Origin: an archaeon
GTDB taxonomy: Archaea > EX4484-52 > WAPT01
Assembly (NCBI GenBank): GCA_029258795.1
Contig: JAPDKB010000007.1
Location: forward strand, 96,001 to 160,000
DNA length: 64,000 bases
Direction of reading: 5' to 3'
How positions within the stretch are numbered: the first letter of the stretch is position 1; each line of letters opens with the position of its first letter. The notes below the pieces were generated by a model. That model was not told the DNA's origin. It was given only the letters and a program-made list of their open reading frames with translations, and searched no databases. The translations under genes were made by a program, and so were the position numbers. Below are positions 49,773 to 55,110 of this stretch, piece after piece.

Positions 49773-49836
49773 TCAGGTAGGGTTGATTCTGCCAACAGGA
49801 AAAAATTTAAATATTCCAAAAAATATCCTACCAAAC

Positions 49837-51060
49837 ATGGAGTATTATCCAAGAATAGTAGAGCAAAAACTGGAGAAGTGGCTGGGTAGAAGGGAAATCA
49901 TAATTTTAAAAGGGCCCAGACAGGCCGGGAAAACGACACTGCTTTTGCATTTAAAAGAAAGATTGGGCGGTAATTATTTCACTCTGGAGGATCCCGAGGT
50001 GCTGAGATCATTTGAGGAACATCCTAAAGAATTCGTGAGGAGGTTCAAAGGCAACATCTTTCTGGATGAAGTTCAGTATGCGAGAAATGCTGGAAGGATT
50101 TTGAAATTGATTTATGATCTGTTCCCGGACATCAAGCTTTTTGTGAGTGGTTCTGGCTCGTTCGATATCAAAGTTCCTGTAATGAAATACTTGGTGGGGA
50201 GGGCGATCACCTTTGAGCTATTCCCGCTCACCTTTGAAGAATTCGTACTGTGGAAAGCGCGAGACCTTCATGACTTTCATAAAGAATTTAGAGCAGCGCT
50301 GATGAGATTCATGGACGGAGAGGAGTATGATGTCGAGCCCGCGTTTGATGATGAGTTTCAAAAACTTTTGGAGGAGTACATAATTTACGGTGGGTATCCC
50401 GCGGTGGTTAAGGAGGAAGATGCGGAAATCAAGGTACAGCTGCTCAAATCCTTAATGCAAGCGTATCTTGAAAAAGACGTATTTTTCTTTTTCGATATTC
50501 GACACCTTGAAAAGTTCAGAGATGTCATGAATTTTTTATCCTTCAACACCGGAAACCTGCTCGAGCCCAATACTGTGGCAAGCTCGCTTTCTCTGGATAT
50601 AAGGACGTTATGGCACTACATCACCGTCCTTGAGAACACGTACATAATCAAGCTTGTGAGGCCGTTTTTCAGGAATGTCTCCACAGAGCTCCGAAAAAGA
50701 AGAAAGGTATATTTCCACGACACCGGCTTGAGGAACGCGATACTGTCGAACTTCACCCCTCTTCAGACGAGAACAGATAAGGGCAAACTACTTGAGAACC
50801 ACATATTCATACAGCTACGAGAGATGGGTGAGTTGAGGTACTGGAGAACGAAAGGTAAAGCGGAGGTGGATTTCGTTTTGATGAGAAACGGTAAAATCGT
50901 ACCGATTGAAGTCAAATCATTCGGTAAGGTTAAGAGGGGTTTCCTCAGCTTCTTGAAGACCTACAGACCGGAGAGAGCAATCGTATTTTCAGAAAGGGAG
51001 TACGGAACGAAAAAAGTGGATAAAACGGAGGTGCTGTTCATACCACACTGGATGATCTGA
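49837..51060 (+). CDS. AAA+ ATPase (AAA_14 + DUF4143-type), paralog of 4185-5468
   Basis: GPRQAGKTT, FLDEVQ, SGSGS, GGYP, YFHDTG, EVDFV...PIEVK. Confidence 0.9.
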   Translation: MEYYPRIVEQKLEKWLGRREIIILKGPRQAGKTTLLLHLKERLGGNYFTLEDPEVLRSFEEHPKEFVRRFKGNIFLDEVQYARNAGRILKLIYDLFPDIKLFVSGSGSFDIKVPVMKYLVGRAITFELFPLTFEEFVLWKARDLHDFHKEFRAALMRFMDGEEYDVEPAFDDEFQKLLEEYIIYGGYPAVVKEEDAEIKVQLLKSLMQAYLEKDVFFFFDIRHLEKFRDVMNFLSFNTGNLLEPNTVASSLSLDIRTLWHYITVLENTYIIKLVRPFFRNVSTELRKRRKVYFHDTGLRNAILSNFTPLQTRTDKGKLLENHIFIQLREMGELRYWRTKGKAEVDFVLMRNGKIVPIEVKSFGKVKRGFLSFLKTYRPERAIVFSEREYGTKKVDKTEVLFIPHWMI

Positions 51061-51065
51061 TAAAG

Positions 51066-51584
51066 TCACTTCTTTTCCGCACCCTTCGTTTTCTTCCTTG
51101 CGGTACGAGTACTACGCCCTGTGCTGAACGGCTCCTTGCCGAGGTCTATGACATAATCGGCAGCGTGCTGCAGAGCTTTTGAAAACGCTGGTTCCCTCCC
51201 GATTATTATCACTTCCTTCCCATGTTCTTTTGCTTTGTGCACCAGCGGCAGGAAGTCGGCATCTCTGGTTGCTATTGCCACAATATCTATATCCTTTCTG
51301 TGCACCGCTTCCATGCACTCAACCGCCATGTAAACATCGACATCCGCGGTTTCATCCTTCATCTTGCTCATGCCGATGACCGGCTCGAATCCTTCATTGG
51401 CTACAGCTTCTATCAACTTTTCCGGAGCATATTGGTTTAGAAAGGCCTTCGCTATCACCACCTTTCCGTACTTCTCCAGCTCGTTCTTAAGTTTCTGCAA
51501 ATTCACCTTGAACTCCTTGCGGAGAATGTTCGGCCCATCGATAAAGACGGCTATGCGTTTTCTCCTTCTGAATAACGGACTCAT
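51066..51584 (-). CDS. NYN domain (LabA/DUF88-like) protein
   Basis: IAVFIDGPN, DVDVYMAVE, ATRDADFLP, ALQHAAD. Confidence 0.9.
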   Translation of the reverse strand: MSPLFRRRKRIAVFIDGPNILRKEFKVNLQKLKNELEKYGKVVIAKAFLNQYAPEKLIEAVANEGFEPVIGMSKMKDETADVDVYMAVECMEAVHRKDIDIVAIATRDADFLPLVHKAKEHGKEVIIIGREPAFSKALQHAADYVIDLGKEPFSTGRSTRTARKKTKGAEKK

Positions 51585-51618
51585 AAAATTCACCCGGAGA
51601 ATGGTAAGGATGGAATCT

Positions 51619-52554
51619 TTATATTAGTATGGTGCTCACCGCTCGCATGCACTCTTCAAGATTCGTTACCGCTTTCGGCGTGTCAGCTCGCGAGTGATAC
51701 ACCTCCATCACCTGCCTGAAAGAGCCGAAGATTCCGGTGGCTTTGTTGAGGAAAGAATTGTCTCTCAGCCATAGCGCATCCCTGATCATCTCTCTGTCTC
51801 TTGTTATTTCCACTCCGCCCCTCCCGATGCAATCCACAACCACGATGCTTTTTGCTTGTTCCATCACATCTCTGAACTCCCTCTCAAGAGCTCTGTAGCC
51901 GTAGCACCAGTAAATCTTTTCATGGCTCACCTCCTCTGACCCGGCAAGCAGGATCAAGCTGTCCTTCAGATTTGCGTGCTTGGCCATGTGGATCAGTAAT
52001 GCTGCTGCCAGTCCGTTATCAATGGCACCACCCCACCATGAATCGTAGTGTGCCACGATGATCTTCTCCGGATTTTCCGTGTTGCCCACCATGATGTTCT
52101 CCTGCCTGTACGCTTTCCAGCTGAGCTTTATGCTGCCCTCCACATCTTTTGCTTTCAGGATGGTGTGCGCATCCCTCCATCTTATGGCAAGGGCTGGAGC
52201 GCTGTAAAAGGTGAATTTGGATACATCCCTGCAGTACGGGTTGTAGTTGAAGTTCGGTTTTCTGTAGTTGGTGGAGTAGCTGTGCTTGAGAGCGTTCACC
52301 ACCCGTTTTTCCCTTATCCTGCCCGAAACCAAGCTTGAGGGAAGGCAGGGCAGCTGTTTTCCATCAACCCACAGCTCATAGCGAGTGAAAACCGGATACC
52401 TGACTCTGTACCGCTGCACCTCAAAGCCCACATTTTGTTTCCTCAGCTTCTCCTTTATGAGCTCCGCCGCTTTTTGCTCGTTCTCCCAGAGGCGAGGAGC
52501 AAGCTTGCAAAGCTCCTCCAGAGTTCTCATCACCTCAGCTTTTTCAATCCTCAT
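51619..52554 (-). CDS. M28-family Zn-dependent peptidase
   Basis: AHYDS, GAIDN, GSEE, VVDCIG, YHSRADT. Confidence 0.88.
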   Translation of the reverse strand: MRIEKAEVMRTLEELCKLAPRLWENEQKAAELIKEKLRKQNVGFEVQRYRVRYPVFTRYELWVDGKQLPCLPSSLVSGRIREKRVVNALKHSYSTNYRKPNFNYNPYCRDVSKFTFYSAPALAIRWRDAHTILKAKDVEGSIKLSWKAYRQENIMVGNTENPEKIIVAHYDSWWGGAIDNGLAAALLIHMAKHANLKDSLILLAGSEEVSHEKIYWCYGYRALEREFRDVMEQAKSIVVVDCIGRGGVEITRDREMIRDALWLRDNSFLNKATGIFGSFRQVMEVYHSRADTPKAVTNLEECMRAVSTILI

Positions 52555-53788
52555 TTCTTCTCACCCCCTCAACCATCCTGCCAGAGAGCTCTCCTGCCAT
52601 CTTGCTGGCTAAAGTGCTGAGGTCTGTGCTGATCTCGTGCCGTGCCTCTGACCTGTCCGTGCCGTTCATTGCCGGCAGATAGACCTGCAGCGCCACCTCA
52701 GCTGCATCGCACCCGAGCTTTTTGATGTAGTGCGTTCCTGCTGCAGCGTGCAGGAGGCGCGGGTCAATGCTGCCATCATATATGGAAAAGTCCGCTATTG
52801 GTAGTTTTGGTATTGAAAGCTCGCGCTCCATCACTTTCTGGAGTTTTAACGCTGGATCCGGCTGGAATTTTCCATCAGGAAGGCCGTTCCTCACAAGGTA
52901 AATGGCTTGCGGATTGTAAGACAGCATGCTCAGTATCAGGTAGTTGTAGGACTCGTGTGCTGTGATGTGCGGGCTCATTTCCTTCAGCTCAGCTGCGCTG
53001 ATGCTCTCTCCTTTTCTTCTGGCTGGAGATGCCGTTCTTTCCTCAGCGTCGATGATGTAGAGTTCCGCTCTTCCATCATCTTTTGGAATCCACACTCCCT
53101 TGACGTATGGCTTCTTTCCGTCCTCCACATCATCGAGGAGATGTGCTGCTATGCTCCTGTAAACTGGAGCGATACATCCTTTATGTAGCTTGCTGGATGA
53201 GATTTTCCGATGGAGGGAAGGTAGGGTGTCGTTTTGTCCGAGCTCAAGCTCGAAATATTCTTCCAGCATCTCTTTCTTTCCTTTGTTCAGATTCAAGCGG
53301 TGCGATTCCAGCGTGTGCATGTCCTTCATTGGAGCGACGGTCACCTTGCTCAGCTCTGCCATGCTGCCATTCTTGCTCTCATTCACCATCAGCACCTCGG
53401 CATAACATCTCTTCTCAAGATTTTTGCTGTGCATGACGTCAACGGGCAAGGATGGCGCGCTGGTAGTATAGCTGGAAGTGATGCCTCCCTTTCCCAAATA
53501 TTTTCCGATCGCATCAGCCAAGTTCAGCAGCACCTCATGCTCCAGCTTGCGCGTTGGCAGCTGTCTGCCGAAGAGCAACGTGATGTCGGCGCTGCTATCA
53601 ACCACACCATGTCTGTACAGCTCATCCTGAATATCGCTGAAAGTCAACGATGTGTTGCAGCACTTGTTTAGCCATGAATCCACCACCCTTTTAATTTCAT
53701 AACTGCTGAACTTTTTCTTCTGCACGGCTTTTTCCATCTCTTTGAGGTTTGTGATGTACCTCACTGCACTTTCACCTCCCAATTCCAT
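52544..53788 (-). CDS. Hypothetical protein (414 aa) coupled to the M28 peptidase
   Basis: AGGAGGTG RBS next to ATG 53788; 11-bp overlap with the peptidase gene; no known motif. Confidence 0.8.
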   Translation of the reverse strand: MELGGESAVRYITNLKEMEKAVQKKKFSSYEIKRVVDSWLNKCCNTSLTFSDIQDELYRHGVVDSSADITLLFGRQLPTRKLEHEVLLNLADAIGKYLGKGGITSSYTTSAPSLPVDVMHSKNLEKRCYAEVLMVNESKNGSMAELSKVTVAPMKDMHTLESHRLNLNKGKKEMLEEYFELELGQNDTLPSLHRKISSSKLHKGCIAPVYRSIAAHLLDDVEDGKKPYVKGVWIPKDDGRAELYIIDAEERTASPARRKGESISAAELKEMSPHITAHESYNYLILSMLSYNPQAIYLVRNGLPDGKFQPDPALKLQKVMERELSIPKLPIADFSIYDGSIDPRLLHAAAGTHYIKKLGCDAAEVALQVYLPAMNGTDRSEARHEISTDLSTLASKMAGELSGRMVEGVRRNED

Positions 53789-53884
53789 CACCTCCTTTTT
53801 TTGGTTTTGTGGAGAAGGATGAGCGAGGAGTTTTTGCAAGAAATTGTCAATATCATGCAAGAACTAATATCGATAGATGTGAGT

Positions 53885-54213
53885 AAGGGCATCAAGTGCT
53901 CGGCAGAATCCACCTTCGCTTCACTTCCGCAACACTCCACCCGAGGCGAGGGGCTTTGGGGCGGAAAAGGAAAAACATCATGCAGGGATTATTTCCCCGC
54001 CCCTCGCCCCGGAAGCTTTAGCATAAAACCAAAAGCCAAAGCCATAGAAAAAGTCGAATCGATAAAAGAGCTCCAGCTTTGCTCTTTCAAGCTTCTCGCA
54101 AGCAGGAGATGCCGCAGTAATACTAGCAATGCTACCATCTCTTTTTGTACGGCACATGTTTGTGCTCAACTGGTGCGGCATCTCCCATCACGCGGGTAAG
54201 CTATGGTGACAGG
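53885..54213 (-). ncRNA. Candidate structured leader RNA / ncRNA
   Basis: Minus-strand GAAACA-TTTATATA promoter at about 54236-54249; five stem systems whose G-U pairs form only on the minus strand; hairpin plus U-run at about 54064-54088. Confidence 0.5.
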
Positions 54214-54348
54214 GTGAATTGATGTTGCGAGAAGTATATAAATGTTTCGCTGGTGCCAATGCGATATACTCCCTGCGAGATTTGGACCCGGAGTTTATTT
54301 GAAACTGTCCGAAACCCTTATAAAAATGTATCGCGTGTCTTTCTTCTC

Positions 54349-55110
54349 ATGATAGATGTGCACTGTCATCTCGAGCAGAAGGATTACGATAACGATCTGG
54401 ATGATGTGATAAGAAGGGCAAAAGAAGCTGGTTTGAAAGCCATCATAACGTGTTGCGCAAATCCAGCTGATCTCGACAAGAGTGTGGAGATTGTGGAAAG
54501 GTATAGAGGTTTCGTGTTTCTCAGCGCTTCCCTCCACCCGATTCACGTGCCGGACTACAGCGATGAGGAAGCGGAAGCATTCATGAAAAAGCTTGAAAGC
54601 CTGAAGGACATACTTGTTGGGATTGGTGAAACGGGACTTGATTATTTCTGGGTGAAGGATGAGAAAGAGAGAGAAAGGCAGAAAGAAGTGTTCCGGATGC
54701 ACATAGAGCTTGCAAGAAAGCTGAAGCTCCCGCTTGTTGTGCACAGCAGGGAAAGCCATGATGATGTCGTGTCCATTCTGGACGAGTACAACTATAATAG
54801 AGTGCTGTGGCATTTCTTCGGAGTGAAGGACAGGGTGGAGTGGCTGGTTGAGCACAACTACAGGGCTTCTTTCAACACCCTGCTGTTCAGGAGCAAGACA
54901 CACAAGAAGATCGTGAAACGCTTGCCGATCGAGCTCATTTTGCTTGAGACGGATGCGCCATGGCTCGGGTTTGGAAAGAGGAACGAGCCGTCAGCCATAG
55001 TTAGAGTGGCTGAGAGAATAGCCGAAGTGAGGAAAATGAATTTTGAGGAAGTATGGGAGACGTGCGGGAGGAATGCTGCGGAGTTTTTCGGGTTGAAAAT
55101 CAAGATTTGA
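54349..55110 (+). CDS. tatD: TatD family nuclease
   Basis: MIDVHCHL, LHP, GIGETGLDY, VVHSR, LETDAPW, RNEP. Confidence 0.93.
   Translation: MIDVHCHLEQKDYDNDLDDVIRRAKEAGLKAIITCCANPADLDKSVEIVERYRGFVFLSASLHPIHVPDYSDEEAEAFMKKLESLKDILVGIGETGLDYFWVKDEKERERQKEVFRMHIELARKLKLPLVVHSRESHDDVVSILDEYNYNRVLWHFFGVKDRVEWLVEHNYRASFNTLLFRSKTHKKIVKRLPIELILLETDAPWLGFGKRNEPSAIVRVAERIAEVRKMNFEEVWETCGRNAAEFFGLKIKI

What the first reader, a model, noticed from the sequence alone, without database searches (positions are those of the whole stretch)
53789..54249. ~425-nt highly structured leader: candidate novel archaeal cis-regulatory RNA or ncRNA
Seen (minus strand, from a BRE-TATA at about 54236-54249, +1 about 54213): (i) 5' hairpin CCUGUCAC/GUGAUGGG; (ii) a perfect 12-bp stem GGAGAUGCCGCA/UGCGGCAUCUCC (54185-54174/54116-54105) closing two inner hairpins, with a competing internal GAGAUG; (iii) AAAGAGC/GCUCUUU hairpin plus U-runs; (iv) a 14-bp stem CCGGGGCGAGGGGC/GCCCCUCGCCUCGG (54012-53999/53954-53941) with two alternative registers; (v) a GGGUG-GAGUGUU/AGCACUU-GA-UGCCC domain. 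Mismatches resolve as G-U only on this strand. It also holds overlapping uORFs (18 aa 54188-54132; hydrophobic 49 aa 54138-53989). I see no second TATA before ATG 53788. Inference: a riboswitch or attenuator (few are known in archaea), a leader-peptide control element, or a stand-alone ncRNA, in a genome that is otherwise tightly packed and largely leaderless.
Basis: partly seen in the sequence, partly recalled or inferred. Interest (0 to 1): 0.78.

Follow-up and report, generated by a model that had tools for sequence, protein, structure and literature searches.

The report
Structured small-gene mRNA before DPANN gene
The long "leader" is mostly an overlooked gene for a 67-residue, aromatic-rich small protein whose mRNA also carries two strongly conserved hairpins, one of which hides its own start codon; it occurs in one genus of tiny symbiotic archaea, and its function is unknown.

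Summary
The 12-bp stem (54185-54174/54116-54105) and the 14+4-bp hairpin (54012-53995/53961-53941) are kept in the only two relatives that have this locus (G001, G002; same genus of a 42-genome DPANN phylum). They show one compensatory pair and two G-U/Watson-Crick switches. The BRE/TATA is also conserved, and strain contigs lose synteny exactly at its upstream edge.

The other hairpins (i, iii, v) and the 10-nt inverted repeat are specific to this window. The region is single copy, so it is not a MITE. Rfam gives nothing.

It has:
- a conserved AUG and a conserved stop;
- in-frame indels only;
- a synonymous-biased substitution pattern (permutation P = 0.004);
- an invariant FYGFGFWFYA core.

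Its AUG lies inside the 12-bp stem, and its stop lies in the loop of the second hairpin.

My best reading (about 0.55) is a bicistronic mRNA: a structured small-protein gene followed by a genus-specific 414-aa gene of unknown, apparently new fold. A riboswitch is unlikely, because the interior of the 12-bp stem is hypervariable. An aromatic-codon leader-peptide switch is not excluded. There are no expression data.

The parts
54235..54249 (-). BRE/TATA promoter (CGAAACA + TTTATATA). The inferred transcription start is near 54210-54215.
   Evidence: Invariant in the window, G001 and G002. Contigs of related strains lose similarity exactly at 54249 in runs X2 and X4 (table 7). The start site is inferred from the usual archaeal TATA-to-start spacing (my knowledge); it was not measured.
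53978..54181 (-). Unannotated small ORF of 67 codons plus TGA. The N-terminal ~40 residues are variable. The C-terminal part is conserved: ...FFYGFGFWFYA.AS.ARGGEI..A.
   Evidence: Listed. Orthologous ORFs of 68 and 64 codons, running from the same AUG to the same stop, are in G001 and G002. Length differences are multiples of 3 only, including a 12-nt tandem duplication in G001. Single-difference codons give S:N 6:3 in this frame against 2:10 and 4:5 in the others; differences by codon position are 5/5/11. 23 of 31 residues are identical against 18.0 +/- 1.7 expected, P = 0.0038. Two strain variants are synonymous: 54122 (AGT>AGC) and 53981 (GCA>GCG). The G001 form is called as a 68-aa protein on 3 public contigs.
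54174..54185 (-). P1 5' arm, GGAG-AUG-CCGCA. It contains the start codon of the small ORF.
   Evidence: 12 of 12 pairs are kept in the 3 sequences, with one G-C to G-U change in G002.
54105..54116 (-). P1 3' arm, UGCGG-CAU-CUCC (codons 22-26, TAASP). It pairs with the start region. The 57-nt interior is hypervariable.
   Evidence: Interior lengths are 57, 66 and 54 nt in the three sequences. G001-G002 identity is 0.53-0.65 in the windows over the interior of the stem and its 3' arm, against 0.9 or more over most of the locus.
54023..54067 (-). Aromatic codon run, F Y R F D F F Y G F G F W F Y: 11 of 15 codons are Phe, Tyr or Trp. It is also a U-rich tract.
   Evidence: Four TTT/TTC changes and one GGC/GGT change are all synonymous in this frame.
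53995..54012 (-). P2 5' arm, CCGGGGCGAGGGGC + GGGG. It covers codons 57 to 62 of the small ORF (S G A R G G).
   Evidence: The third codon positions in this arm are unchanged except the one that is compensated on the other arm.
53962..53994 (-). P2 loop. It holds the last codons, the stop codon TGA (53980-53978) and a U-rich tract (UGUUUUUCCUUUUCC).
   Evidence: In this loop and the 3' arm next to it, the indels beyond the stop are not multiples of 3: a 4-nt gap against the relatives and a 1-nt deletion at 53963, the base next to the loop, in a strain contig.
53941..53961 (-). P2 3' arm, CCCC-AAA-GCCCCUCGCCUCGG. It is non-coding and nearly invariant.
   Evidence: one compensatory pair (C-G in the window, U-A in the relatives) and one G-U/A-U switch. 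All 4 strain runs carry A-U at 54009. P2 is still predicted to be paired at 85 C.
53870..53940 (-). It is only weakly conserved and the pairing registers differ between the window and the relatives.
   Evidence: several broken pairs and 2 changes on both sides; identity 0.45-0.57.
53834..53860 (-). Palindrome TTGCATG-N13-CTTGCAA. It is one copy of an operator-like motif found across the genome.
   Evidence: 18 sites in the genome against 0-8 in 10 shuffles. Several sites lie between a TTTAAAG box and an SD+ATG.
53782..53795 (-). Shine-Dalgarno GGAGGUG (53795-53789) and the start of the 414-aa gene (ATG 53788, or TTG 53782, which aligns with the GTG start of the relatives).
52544..53788 (-). 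414-aa gene of unknown function, always found with the element.
   Evidence: present in 3 of 42 genomes of the phylum, the same 3 that hold the element. No Pfam, NCBIfam or PADLOC family matches. AF2 pLDDT is 89.8 with 16 sequences, with no PDB match at E <= 0.001.

Best explanation
The 'leader' is the 5' part of a two-gene transcript that starts about 25 nt downstream of the conserved TATA box.

The transcript has a 5' UTR of about 30 nt. It then encodes a 67-residue small protein that no gene call in this window's lineage records. This protein has a fast-evolving polar N-terminal half and a conserved aromatic/glycine-rich segment, FYGFGFWFYA, which is probably membrane- or interface-seeking. 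The transcript runs on through a spacer of about 190 nt to the Shine-Dalgarno-led 414-aa gene.

Two RNA helices are laid over the small gene and are selected at the nucleotide level:
- P1 (12 bp) pairs the start codon and the GGAG before it with codons 22-26. A finished, ribosome-free mRNA is therefore closed to initiation. Ribosomes can load only on the nascent RNA, before the 3' arm is made, or while another ribosome holds P1 open.
- P2 (18 bp with an AAA bulge; predicted stable even at 85 C) encloses the last ten codons and the stop codon. It most likely acts as an intercistronic stabiliser or barrier that sets the ratio of small-gene to downstream-gene expression.

Shown: the stems, their conservation, the ORF and its coding signature, the promoter conservation and the co-occurrence with the 414-aa gene.
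Inferred: the transcription start, co-transcription, translation of the ORF, and what P1 and P2 do.
For: ORF:
- Same AUG and same stop in 3 sequences; lengths 67, 68 and 64 codons; length differences are multiples of 3 only.
- S:N 6:3 in this frame against 2:10 and 4:5; differences by codon position 5/5/11.
- Permutation P = 0.0038.
- Two synonymous strain variants inside the ORF, while the non-3n indels lie behind the stop.
- Overall peptide identity is 54-56%, like the 54-58% of the neighbouring protein.

RNA helices:
- 30 pairs, 90 of 90 cells paired, against 43-53% when slid.
- One compensatory C-G/U-A pair. It joins a synonymous third-position change (TCC/TCT) to a change in the non-coding arm.
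- One G-U/A-U and one G-C/G-U switch, which are standard pairs only on the minus strand.
- Every other third codon position inside the arms is unchanged although the block is 23% diverged.
- A perfect 12-bp stem appears in 0 of 300 shuffles.

Unit:
- The promoter is invariant.
- Synteny in strains ends at 54249.
- The upstream neighbour differs: TatD here, tRNA-Ile in the relatives.
- The element and the 414-aa gene are found in the same 3 of 42 genomes.
- The 414-aa gene has an SD, and I see no conserved TATA in the spacer.
- The core at 54052-53917 is 0.78-0.88 identical. That is as high as the best parts of the 414-aa gene, whose protein is only 54-55% identical.
Against: - Only three sequences exist, and two of them are about 93% alike. 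In effect there is one deep comparison. The shuffle control is not significant (182 of 500 shuffles reach the observed covariation).
- There are no expression data of any kind.
- The plus strand folds as well as the minus strand by energy.
- No family, fold or relative was found for the small protein.
- Aromatic-rich 16-residue windows are common in six-frame translations of this T-rich genome: 101 windows with at least 9 of 16. Composition alone therefore proves nothing.
- The N-terminal half is almost unalignable, which suits a regulatory ORF as well as a disordered tail.
- A U-rich tract inside the P2 loop could terminate transcription before the 3' arm is made. That would make the two genes separate transcripts.
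- The operator-like palindrome before the 414-aa gene hints at a second control point or promoter.
Confidence: 0.55

Rival explanations
1. Ribosome-sensing leader peptide. The ORF is a regulatory uORF whose run of Phe, Tyr and Trp codons reports the supply of aromatic aminoacyl-tRNA. A ribosome stalled in the run leaves P2 free to form. A ribosome that reaches the stop codon in the P2 loop melts P2. The state of P2, or of the U-tract in its loop, then sets read-through into, or translation of, the 414-aa gene.
For: - 11 of 15 codons at 54067-54023 are aromatic. They are kept through synonymous TTT/TTC changes.
- The run ends 10 nt before P2, and the stop codon and a U-rich tract lie in the P2 loop.
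- The N-terminal ~40 codons evolve almost freely while the frame is kept open. This is the pattern expected if translation matters rather than the peptide.
- The downstream gene has an SD and no conserved TATA of its own.
Against: - 64-68 codons is long for a leader peptide (my knowledge of the trp, phe and his leaders).
- I found no conserved mutually exclusive pairing. The one candidate, the P2 3' arm against the 414-aa ribosome-binding site, is predicted strongly only in G001.
- The glycines and the whole C-terminus are conserved as well.
- P2 is not followed by a U-run. Archaeal termination is not known to need hairpins (my knowledge).
- The 414-aa protein has no visible link to aromatic amino acids.
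- Aromatic-rich windows are common in this genome.
Confidence: 0.15
2. Type I toxin-like module. The small protein is a membrane-active, potentially toxic peptide. Its mRNA is kept translationally silent by P1, and perhaps by an unseen antisense RNA. The cassette moves between genomic contexts.
For: - The start codon is buried in a conserved 12-bp stem.
- There is an aromatic, hydrophobic segment of about 17 residues.
- The mRNA is highly structured.
- The flanks of the unit differ between the window, its strains and the relatives.
- The neighbourhood holds NYN and AAA/DUF4143 genes.
Against: - No antisense promoter or antisense RNA can be shown.
- The hydrophobic stretch is short and carries R and D in the window.
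- No PADLOC family matches.
- The ORF is tied to, and co-oriented with, a 414-aa gene, which is not the usual type I layout (my knowledge; for the type I papers I saw the search listing and abstracts only).
- In the type I papers listed (listing and abstracts only) I saw no archaeal example; that I know of none is my recollection.
Confidence: 0.1
3. Non-coding structured RNA: a cis-regulatory leader bound by a protein or ligand, or a stand-alone or RNP RNA that works with the 414-aa protein. On this reading the open frame is incidental.
For: - Two helices are conserved, with one compensatory change.
- Nucleotide conservation continues undiminished for about 60 nt beyond the stop codon.
- The element always accompanies the 414-aa gene.
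- No Rfam family matches, which would leave it a new RNA.
Against: - The frame-specific substitution pattern and in-frame indels, together with the conserved AUG and stop, would all have to be chance.
- The interior of P1, where a junction or aptamer would sit, is hypervariable.
- There is no conserved alternative fold.
- A covariance model of the core finds nothing outside the genus: in the other 39 of 42 genomes the best E-value is 0.116 or higher.
Confidence: 0.1
4. DNA-level element: a MITE or other repeat, an invertible segment between the 12-bp inverted repeats, or protein-binding palindromes only.
For: - P1, P2 and the 10-nt repeat are inverted repeats in DNA too.
- The reverse complement of the P1 interior aligns slightly better to the relatives than the direct orientation does.
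Against: - The region is single copy in the genome.
- The inversion signal is not significant (P = 0.27 and 0.076), and inverting the segment would put a stop codon in the ORF.
- No strand-changing joints appear in the strain contigs.
- The G-U cells and the compensatory pair point to pairing in RNA.
Confidence: 0.03

Closest known systems
Translation start sites closed by long-range pairing inside the mRNA (phage MS2 maturation gene 'kinetic' control; fold-back inhibition in hok-type and other type I toxin mRNAs). Recalled from my own knowledge; for the type I papers I saw only the listing and abstracts.
   Same: The initiation codon and the purines before it are paired with a complementary stretch 60-70 nt downstream, so only nascent or actively translated RNA should be open. 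The mRNA encodes a small hydrophobic peptide.
   Different: This is an archaeon (DPANN). The partner of the start region lies inside the same ORF. No antisense RNA or processing step is known. The ORF is followed by a large co-oriented gene. Nothing has been tested experimentally.
Bacterial leader-peptide attenuators for aromatic amino acids (pheL/pheA, pheM/pheST, trpL). Recalled; one search shows the listing and abstracts only.
   Same: An upstream ORF with a dense run of Phe, Tyr and Trp codons lies directly before a strong hairpin and a U-rich tract, ahead of an SD-led gene.
   Different: The ORF is 64-68 codons rather than about 14-30. The U-tract is inside the hairpin loop, not after the hairpin. 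I found no conserved antiterminator alternative. The regulated gene has no known link to aromatic amino acids.
Unannotated small ORFs of archaea found by Ribo-seq (Haloferax volcanii PMC10117724; Methanosarcina mazei PMC11456600). Abstracts seen in the listing only.
   Same: A protein of 70 aa or fewer that is missing from annotation, upstream of and co-oriented with a larger gene.
   Different: Here the evidence is comparative only. The ORF is overlaid by two conserved RNA helices. I saw no such overlay in those two abstracts; the full texts were not read.
Riboswitches and Rfam cis-regulatory leaders
   Same: A long, GC-rich, conserved structured 5' region in an AT-rich, compact genome.
   Different: No Rfam match. 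No conserved multi-helix junction. The enclosed region is hypervariable. The conserved core is coding.

Membership tests
Any Rfam 15 family | Covariance-model score at or above the family's gathering threshold | tested here: not met
   No hit in the 64-kb window at gathering thresholds. In E-value mode on 53700-54400 there were 7 chance-level hits, the best E = 0.13 at 19.5 bits against a gathering score of 73. These were miRNA and snoRNA models matching the long hairpin.
Riboswitch (generic) | Conserved ligand-binding core: invariant junction or loop nucleotides enclosed by helices that covary | tested here: not met
   The region enclosed by P1 is the least conserved part of the locus. G001-G002 identity there is 0.53-0.65, and it cannot be aligned to the window. 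The conservation in the P2 loop is accounted for by the codons it holds.
Riboswitch / attenuator (generic) | Two mutually exclusive conserved folds (expression platform) | tested here: inconclusive
   Constrained folding of the 3 sequences gave no alternative pairing shared by all. The P2 3' arm against the 414-aa ribosome-binding site is predicted at 0.48-0.63 in G001 but only 0.00-0.24 in the window and G002. This rests on thermodynamic prediction only.
Leader-peptide attenuator (trp/phe/his type) | Short upstream ORF with a run of codons for the regulating amino acid | tested here: inconclusive
   The run is present and conserved: 11 of 15 codons are aromatic. But the ORF is 64-68 codons long, and such runs are compositionally common in this genome.
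Leader-peptide attenuator (trp/phe/his type) | Terminator hairpin followed directly by a U-run | tested here: not met
   P2 is followed by GGGUGGAG. The U-rich tract lies inside its loop. Hairpin (iii) plus UUUU is specific to the window and lies inside the ORF.
Leader-peptide attenuator (trp/phe/his type) | Regulated genes belong to the metabolism, transport or charging of that amino acid | tested here: inconclusive
   The 414-aa protein has no family and no confident structural match. The best is class I LysRS 1irx at E 7.3e-3 and TMq 0.28, which is too weak to use.
Type I toxin-antitoxin | Small hydrophobic (transmembrane) toxin | tested here: inconclusive
   64-68 aa with an aromatic stretch of about 17 residues, interrupted by R and D in the window. 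Toxicity was not tested.
Type I toxin-antitoxin | Antisense or overlapping RNA antitoxin | not testable with these tools
   No transcript data are available for this organism, so an antisense RNA can be neither seen nor excluded; an antisense promoter cannot be recognised from sequence alone.
MITE / repeat element | Multiple copies in the genome, with terminal inverted repeats | tested here: not met
   The 561 bases match only themselves in G000. Only a 42-45-nt piece (the operator-like palindrome) has 2 further matches. The 10-nt inverted repeat is absent from the relatives.
ncRNA plus polymerase modules (retron or DRT-like), considered after the Atlas lead | The neighbouring protein is a reverse transcriptase or RdRP with a catalytic Asp motif | tested here: not met
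   The Atlas feature hits to viral RdRP clusters score only 0.84-0.86, which the tool rates as a lead only. No RdRP or RT appears among the Foldseek PDB or BFVD matches at a useful E-value. No RT or RdRP Pfam family matches. The LLDD of the window protein is not conserved in the 16-sequence alignment; the invariant or near-invariant residues are R75, Q76, E83, K126 and Y129.

The most novel reading that the evidence does not exclude
The small ORF is a ribosome-sensing leader peptide. Translation through its conserved Phe/Tyr/Trp codon run decides whether the P2 hairpin forms around the ORF's own stop codon and U-tract, and this sets expression of the downstream DPANN-specific gene. That would be a leader-peptide, attenuation-like switch in Archaea, in a host-dependent symbiont that must sense amino-acid supply. 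I know of no archaeal example. The listings (15 and 12 papers shown of 202 and 195) show none, but these searches are not exhaustive.
Probability: 0.12. Interest if true: 0.85.

Novelty: new member of a known kind. Interest (0 to 1): 0.42.

Why it matters
If the reading holds, this is a clear comparative case in Archaea of one stretch of RNA under two constraints at once. It codes for a small protein, and it forms helices that close the protein's own start codon and enclose its stop. It also shows how a small gene can be mistaken for a 'leader' in compact DPANN genomes, where small proteins and RNA-level control are almost unexplored.

It gives a concrete, testable handle (P1 and P2 mutants, peptide detection) on a two-gene cassette. 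The large protein of that cassette belongs to a DPANN-only family that gives a confident predicted fold with no match among solved structures.

The scope is narrow. The element is known from three genomes of one genus, and there are no expression data.

Tried and rejected
More homologues.
- Protein-pattern scan of metagenome contigs with the 4-sequence alignment: 135 pattern matches, none a relative.
- DNA pattern of the P2 arms in metagenome contigs: 0 matches.
- The genome-contig scan returned only the two contigs already held.
- A covariance model of the core (R1) found only the 3 genus members among 42 genomes.
P0005 matched only G000-G002 in the 42 genomes.

Expression. No RNA holder is listed among the 8 runs found. 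This is not evidence either way.

Strain contigs gave only a few visible variants in the region; 131 differences were not shown.

Function of the neighbouring 414-aa protein.
- AF2 with 4 sequences failed (pLDDT 41.9). With 16 sequences it gave pLDDT 89.8.
- Foldseek against the PDB: no match at E <= 0.001.
- BFVD: one unnamed protein at E 5e-4.
- PDB sequence profile: chance-level adenylate kinase hits only, E >= 0.18.
- NCBIfam and PADLOC: nothing for the 414-aa protein.
- The Atlas RdRP-like features were not borne out.

Small protein. Pfam, NCBIfam, PADLOC, the Atlas and the word-index search gave nothing.

Binding of the small protein to the 414-aa protein. Complex prediction returned 'no answer' (score 0.02). 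This is not evidence either way.

Other ideas tested.
- Invertible segment between the P1 arms: not significant.
- Anti-SD switch between the P2 3' arm and the 414-aa ribosome-binding site: inconsistent among the three sequences. One search had a wrong anchor for the window and is superseded.
- Aromatic richness as a statistic: not distinctive, with 101 windows in the genome.
- The plus-strand 132-aa ORF (53801..54199) is not conserved in the relatives and has no Pfam match, so I treat it as spurious.
- The crude ORF map (coverage 0.909, median gap 49 nt) filled this region with that spurious ORF. It supports only 'tightly packed', not a rank for this gap.
- I considered a K-turn, a BHB motif, a G-quadruplex, a frameshift site and C/D or H/ACA sRNAs by eye. 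I dropped them for lack of the defining motifs; no tool test was run.

Supplementary files of papers were not consulted. No paper was read beyond search listings and abstracts.
Full report
WHAT IS THERE.
Region 53789-54349 is a 561-nt divergent intergenic region. It lies between a TatD-family hydrolase gene on the plus strand (Pfam TatD_DNase 1.1e-63; ATG near 54350) and a 414-aa gene on the minus strand.

By a crude ORF map the window is tightly packed: coverage 0.909 and median gap 49 nt. A gap of this size therefore needs explaining.

The genome is a 1.17-Mb assembly in 23 contigs, 96% complete. Its two congeners are titled 'MAG: Nanobdellati archaeon', which is DPANN. Its DNA is held by hydrothermal-vent metagenome runs.

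CHECK OF THE OBSERVATION.

The 425 nt fold better than shuffles on the minus strand (-147.4 kcal/mol, z -3.38, 0 of 100 shuffles). They fold equally well on the plus strand (-148.4, z -4.63). Folding energy therefore does not pick the strand.

Two helices stand out:
- P1, a perfect 12-bp stem (54185-54174/54116-54105). None of 300 dinucleotide shuffles reaches 12 bp. There are about 26 such inverted repeats in the whole genome.
- P2, a 14-bp stem that continues with 4 more pairs after an AAA bulge (54012-53995/53961-53941). With G-U allowed it is 15 bp, reached by 3 of 300 shuffles.

Rfam finds nothing at gathering thresholds in the 64 kb. In E-value mode it gives only chance-level hits.

The 561 bases are single copy in the genome, which refutes the MITE alternative.

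COMPARATIVE DATA.
- Of 41 genomes searched with the DNA, counting the window's own genome G000, only the two congeners G001 and G002 match, at 76-77% over window 53915-54119.
- The 414-aa gene is found in the same 3 of the 42 genomes that make up the whole phylum as held here.
- The 5.8-billion-protein index holds 3 members of the family, one of them the window's own protein. One of the others, P0005, is a fourth lineage whose DNA I could not reach.
- Two metagenome scans found nothing.
- A covariance model of the core found only the three genus members.

Every comparative statement below therefore rests on three sequences, two of which are about 93% alike.

WHAT IS CONSERVED.
- The BRE/TATA and about 25 nt after it.
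- Both arms of P1, while its interior is hypervariable. Interior lengths are 57, 66 and 54 nt, and G001-G002 identity is only 0.53-0.65 in the windows over the interior and the 3' arm.
- A block of about 135 nt at 54052-53917, at 0.78-0.88 identity. It comprises a T-rich stretch, both arms of P2 and about 25 nt beyond.
- A TTGCATG...TGCAA palindrome.
- The GGAGGUG Shine-Dalgarno of the 414-aa gene.

In P1 plus P2, 90 of 90 cells form standard pairs, against 43-53% when the 3' partners are slid. There is one compensatory pair (C-G in the window, U-A in the relatives), one G-U/A-U switch and one G-C/G-U switch. With three sequences the shuffle control cannot be significant (182 of 500).

Strain contigs add the A-U form at 54009 in all 4 runs laid.

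THE MISSED ORF.
On the minus strand an ORF runs from the ATG at 54181 to the TGA at 53980-53978, 67 codons. G001 and G002 have the same ATG, inside the same P1 arm, and the same stop. Their ORFs are 68 and 64 codons.

Evidence that it codes:
- Every length difference between conserved anchors is a multiple of three: 3, 6 and 12 nt. The 12-nt case is a tandem duplication in G001. The indels just behind the stop are 4 nt and 1 nt.
- In the 93-nt block that aligns without gaps, single-difference codons give S:N 6:3 in this frame, against 2:10 and 4:5 in the other two. 11 of 21 differences fall on third positions.
- Redistributing the same substitutions gives 18.0 +/- 1.7 identical residues, against 23 of 31 observed (P = 0.0038).
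- Two of the visible strain variants inside the ORF are synonymous (54122, 53981).
- Gene callers have called the G001 form as a 68-aa protein on 3 public contigs. This is a prediction, not evidence.

The peptide has a poorly conserved polar N-terminal half, an invariant FYGFGFWFYA core and a conserved tail, AS.ARGGEI..A. It has no family or relative.

CODING AND STRUCTURE OVERLAP.
- The P1 5' arm is GGAG-AUG-CCGCA. Its 3' arm is codons 22-26.
- The P2 5' arm is codons 57-62. The loop holds the last five codons, the stop and a U-rich tract. The 3' arm is non-coding.
- Inside the arms the third codon positions are unchanged. The one exception is a synonymous TCC/TCT change, and it is exactly the one compensated on the non-coding arm.

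This is the signature of RNA-level selection laid over coding selection. It also favours the minus strand.

MECHANISM (inferred).
- P1 should close the small ORF's initiation site in any completed, ribosome-free transcript. Initiation would then be possible only co-transcriptionally or while a ribosome is passing.
- P2 is predicted to stay paired even at 85 C. It must be melted by every ribosome that finishes the ORF. It may protect or partition the transcript, or gate read-through past the U-tract in its loop.
- I found no conserved alternative fold, so I do not claim a switch.
- Co-transcription with the 414-aa gene is inferred from four things: the gene's SD, the lack of a conserved TATA in the spacer, the strict co-occurrence, and the fact that synteny in strains and relatives begins at the BRE (54249) while the upstream neighbour changes.
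- A caveat: the palindrome TTGCATG-N13-CTTGCAA, 33 nt before the ATG, belongs to an operator-like motif found across the genome (18 sites against 0-8 in shuffles). Elsewhere it sits next to TATA-like boxes. A second promoter or a repressor site is therefore possible.

RIVALS.
- A leader-peptide switch that senses aromatic codons fits the anatomy. It lacks a conserved alternative pairing, a terminator of the classical form, and any link to the function of the downstream gene.
- A type I toxin-like module fits the closed start and the hydrophobic peptide, but no antisense partner is visible.
- A pure ncRNA needs the coding signals to be chance.
- A riboswitch is unlikely because the enclosed region is hypervariable.
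- DNA-level readings (MITE, invertible segment) were tested and not supported.

THE NEIGHBOURING GENE.
- The 414-aa protein has no Pfam, NCBIfam or PADLOC family.
- A profile search of 1.84 billion representatives found 13 proteins in all. The remote ones are annotated as hypothetical proteins of Nanohaloarchaea, and the 10 of the 12 remote homologues that I scanned have no Pfam family.
- With these sequences AF2 gives pLDDT 89.8. Foldseek nevertheless finds no PDB chain at E <= 0.001, and only one unnamed viral protein at E 5e-4.
- The Atlas pointed to viral RdRP clusters at 0.84-0.86, below its own threshold for more than a lead. Nothing else supports that.

VERDICT.
The finding is real and is more than chance. 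Its main content is an overlooked, structured small gene rather than a riboswitch-like leader. It is a new example of known kinds of things: a small ORF, and start-site occlusion by mRNA structure. It is confined to one DPANN genus, and there is no expression evidence. Interest is moderate.

Noticed in passing
window 53834-53860; also G000 C3:79784, C2:92184, C3:54374, C5:71919, C1:179424, C1:243921, C1:284104 and others: The palindromic motif TTGCAAG-N13-CTTGCAA (often followed by AAAC) occurs 18 times in the 1.17-Mb genome with at most 1 mismatch per half-site, against 0-8 in 10 block shuffles. Several copies lie between a TTTAAAG TATA-like box and an SD+ATG, for example upstream of a thioredoxin-like gene. 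It looks like the operator of a dimeric transcription factor with a small regulon. In G001 and G002 the homologous place has a different spacing (N16).
   Followed up: partly
window 52544-53788 (-): The 414-aa protein belongs to a DPANN-only family: 3 close members and about 12 remote ones, some annotated as hypothetical proteins of Nanohaloarchaea. It has no Pfam family. AF2 with 16 sequences gives pLDDT 89.8, yet there is no PDB match at E <= 0.001, so it may be a new fold. The conserved residues include GRQLPT...E and EKRxYA.
   Followed up: partly
window 52547-53788 (-): Protein-language-model features place the 414-aa protein nearest to viral RdRP clusters (scores 0.84-0.86, about 90-100 of 256 shared features). 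This is below the tool's threshold. Foldseek (PDB, BFVD) and Pfam do not support it, and no catalytic Asp motif is conserved.
   Followed up: yes
L004 1690-1770 (-) against L005 1700-1765 (-); window 54117-54173: The interior of the 12-bp stem is a local hot spot of change, even between two relatives that are about 93% identical. It includes an in-frame 12-nt tandem duplication (ATCAGCCATACT x2) in G001.
   Followed up: partly
window 54249: Contigs of closely related strains in two runs (X2, X4) stop resembling the window exactly at the upstream edge of the BRE/TATA and continue with other sequence. In G001 and G002 the upstream neighbour is a divergent tRNA-Ile(GAT) rather than TatD. The downstream neighbours differ as well. 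The unit of promoter, small ORF and 414-aa gene behaves like a cassette.
   Followed up: partly
window 51066-52554 (-) and 49783-51060 (+): Downstream of the 414-aa gene lie a 311-aa ORF with a weak Peptidase_M28 match (E 1.9e-5) that overlaps the 414-aa gene's end by 11 nt, a NYN-domain protein (E 5.5e-32; PADLOC LabA-like NYN 1e-7), and a convergent AAA_14/DUF4143 ATPase. This layout is not seen after the gene in G001 or G002, judged from ORF sizes only.
   Followed up: no
window 53801-54199 (+): A 132-aa plus-strand ORF covers the whole region. It is not conserved in the relatives and has no Pfam match. An automatic annotation could wrongly call it as a gene.
   Followed up: yes
window 53782-53795 (-): The true start of the 414-aa gene may be TTG 53782 rather than ATG 53788. 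TTG aligns with the GTG start of both relatives and lies 6 nt after the GGAGGUG, whereas the ATG abuts it.
   Followed up: partly
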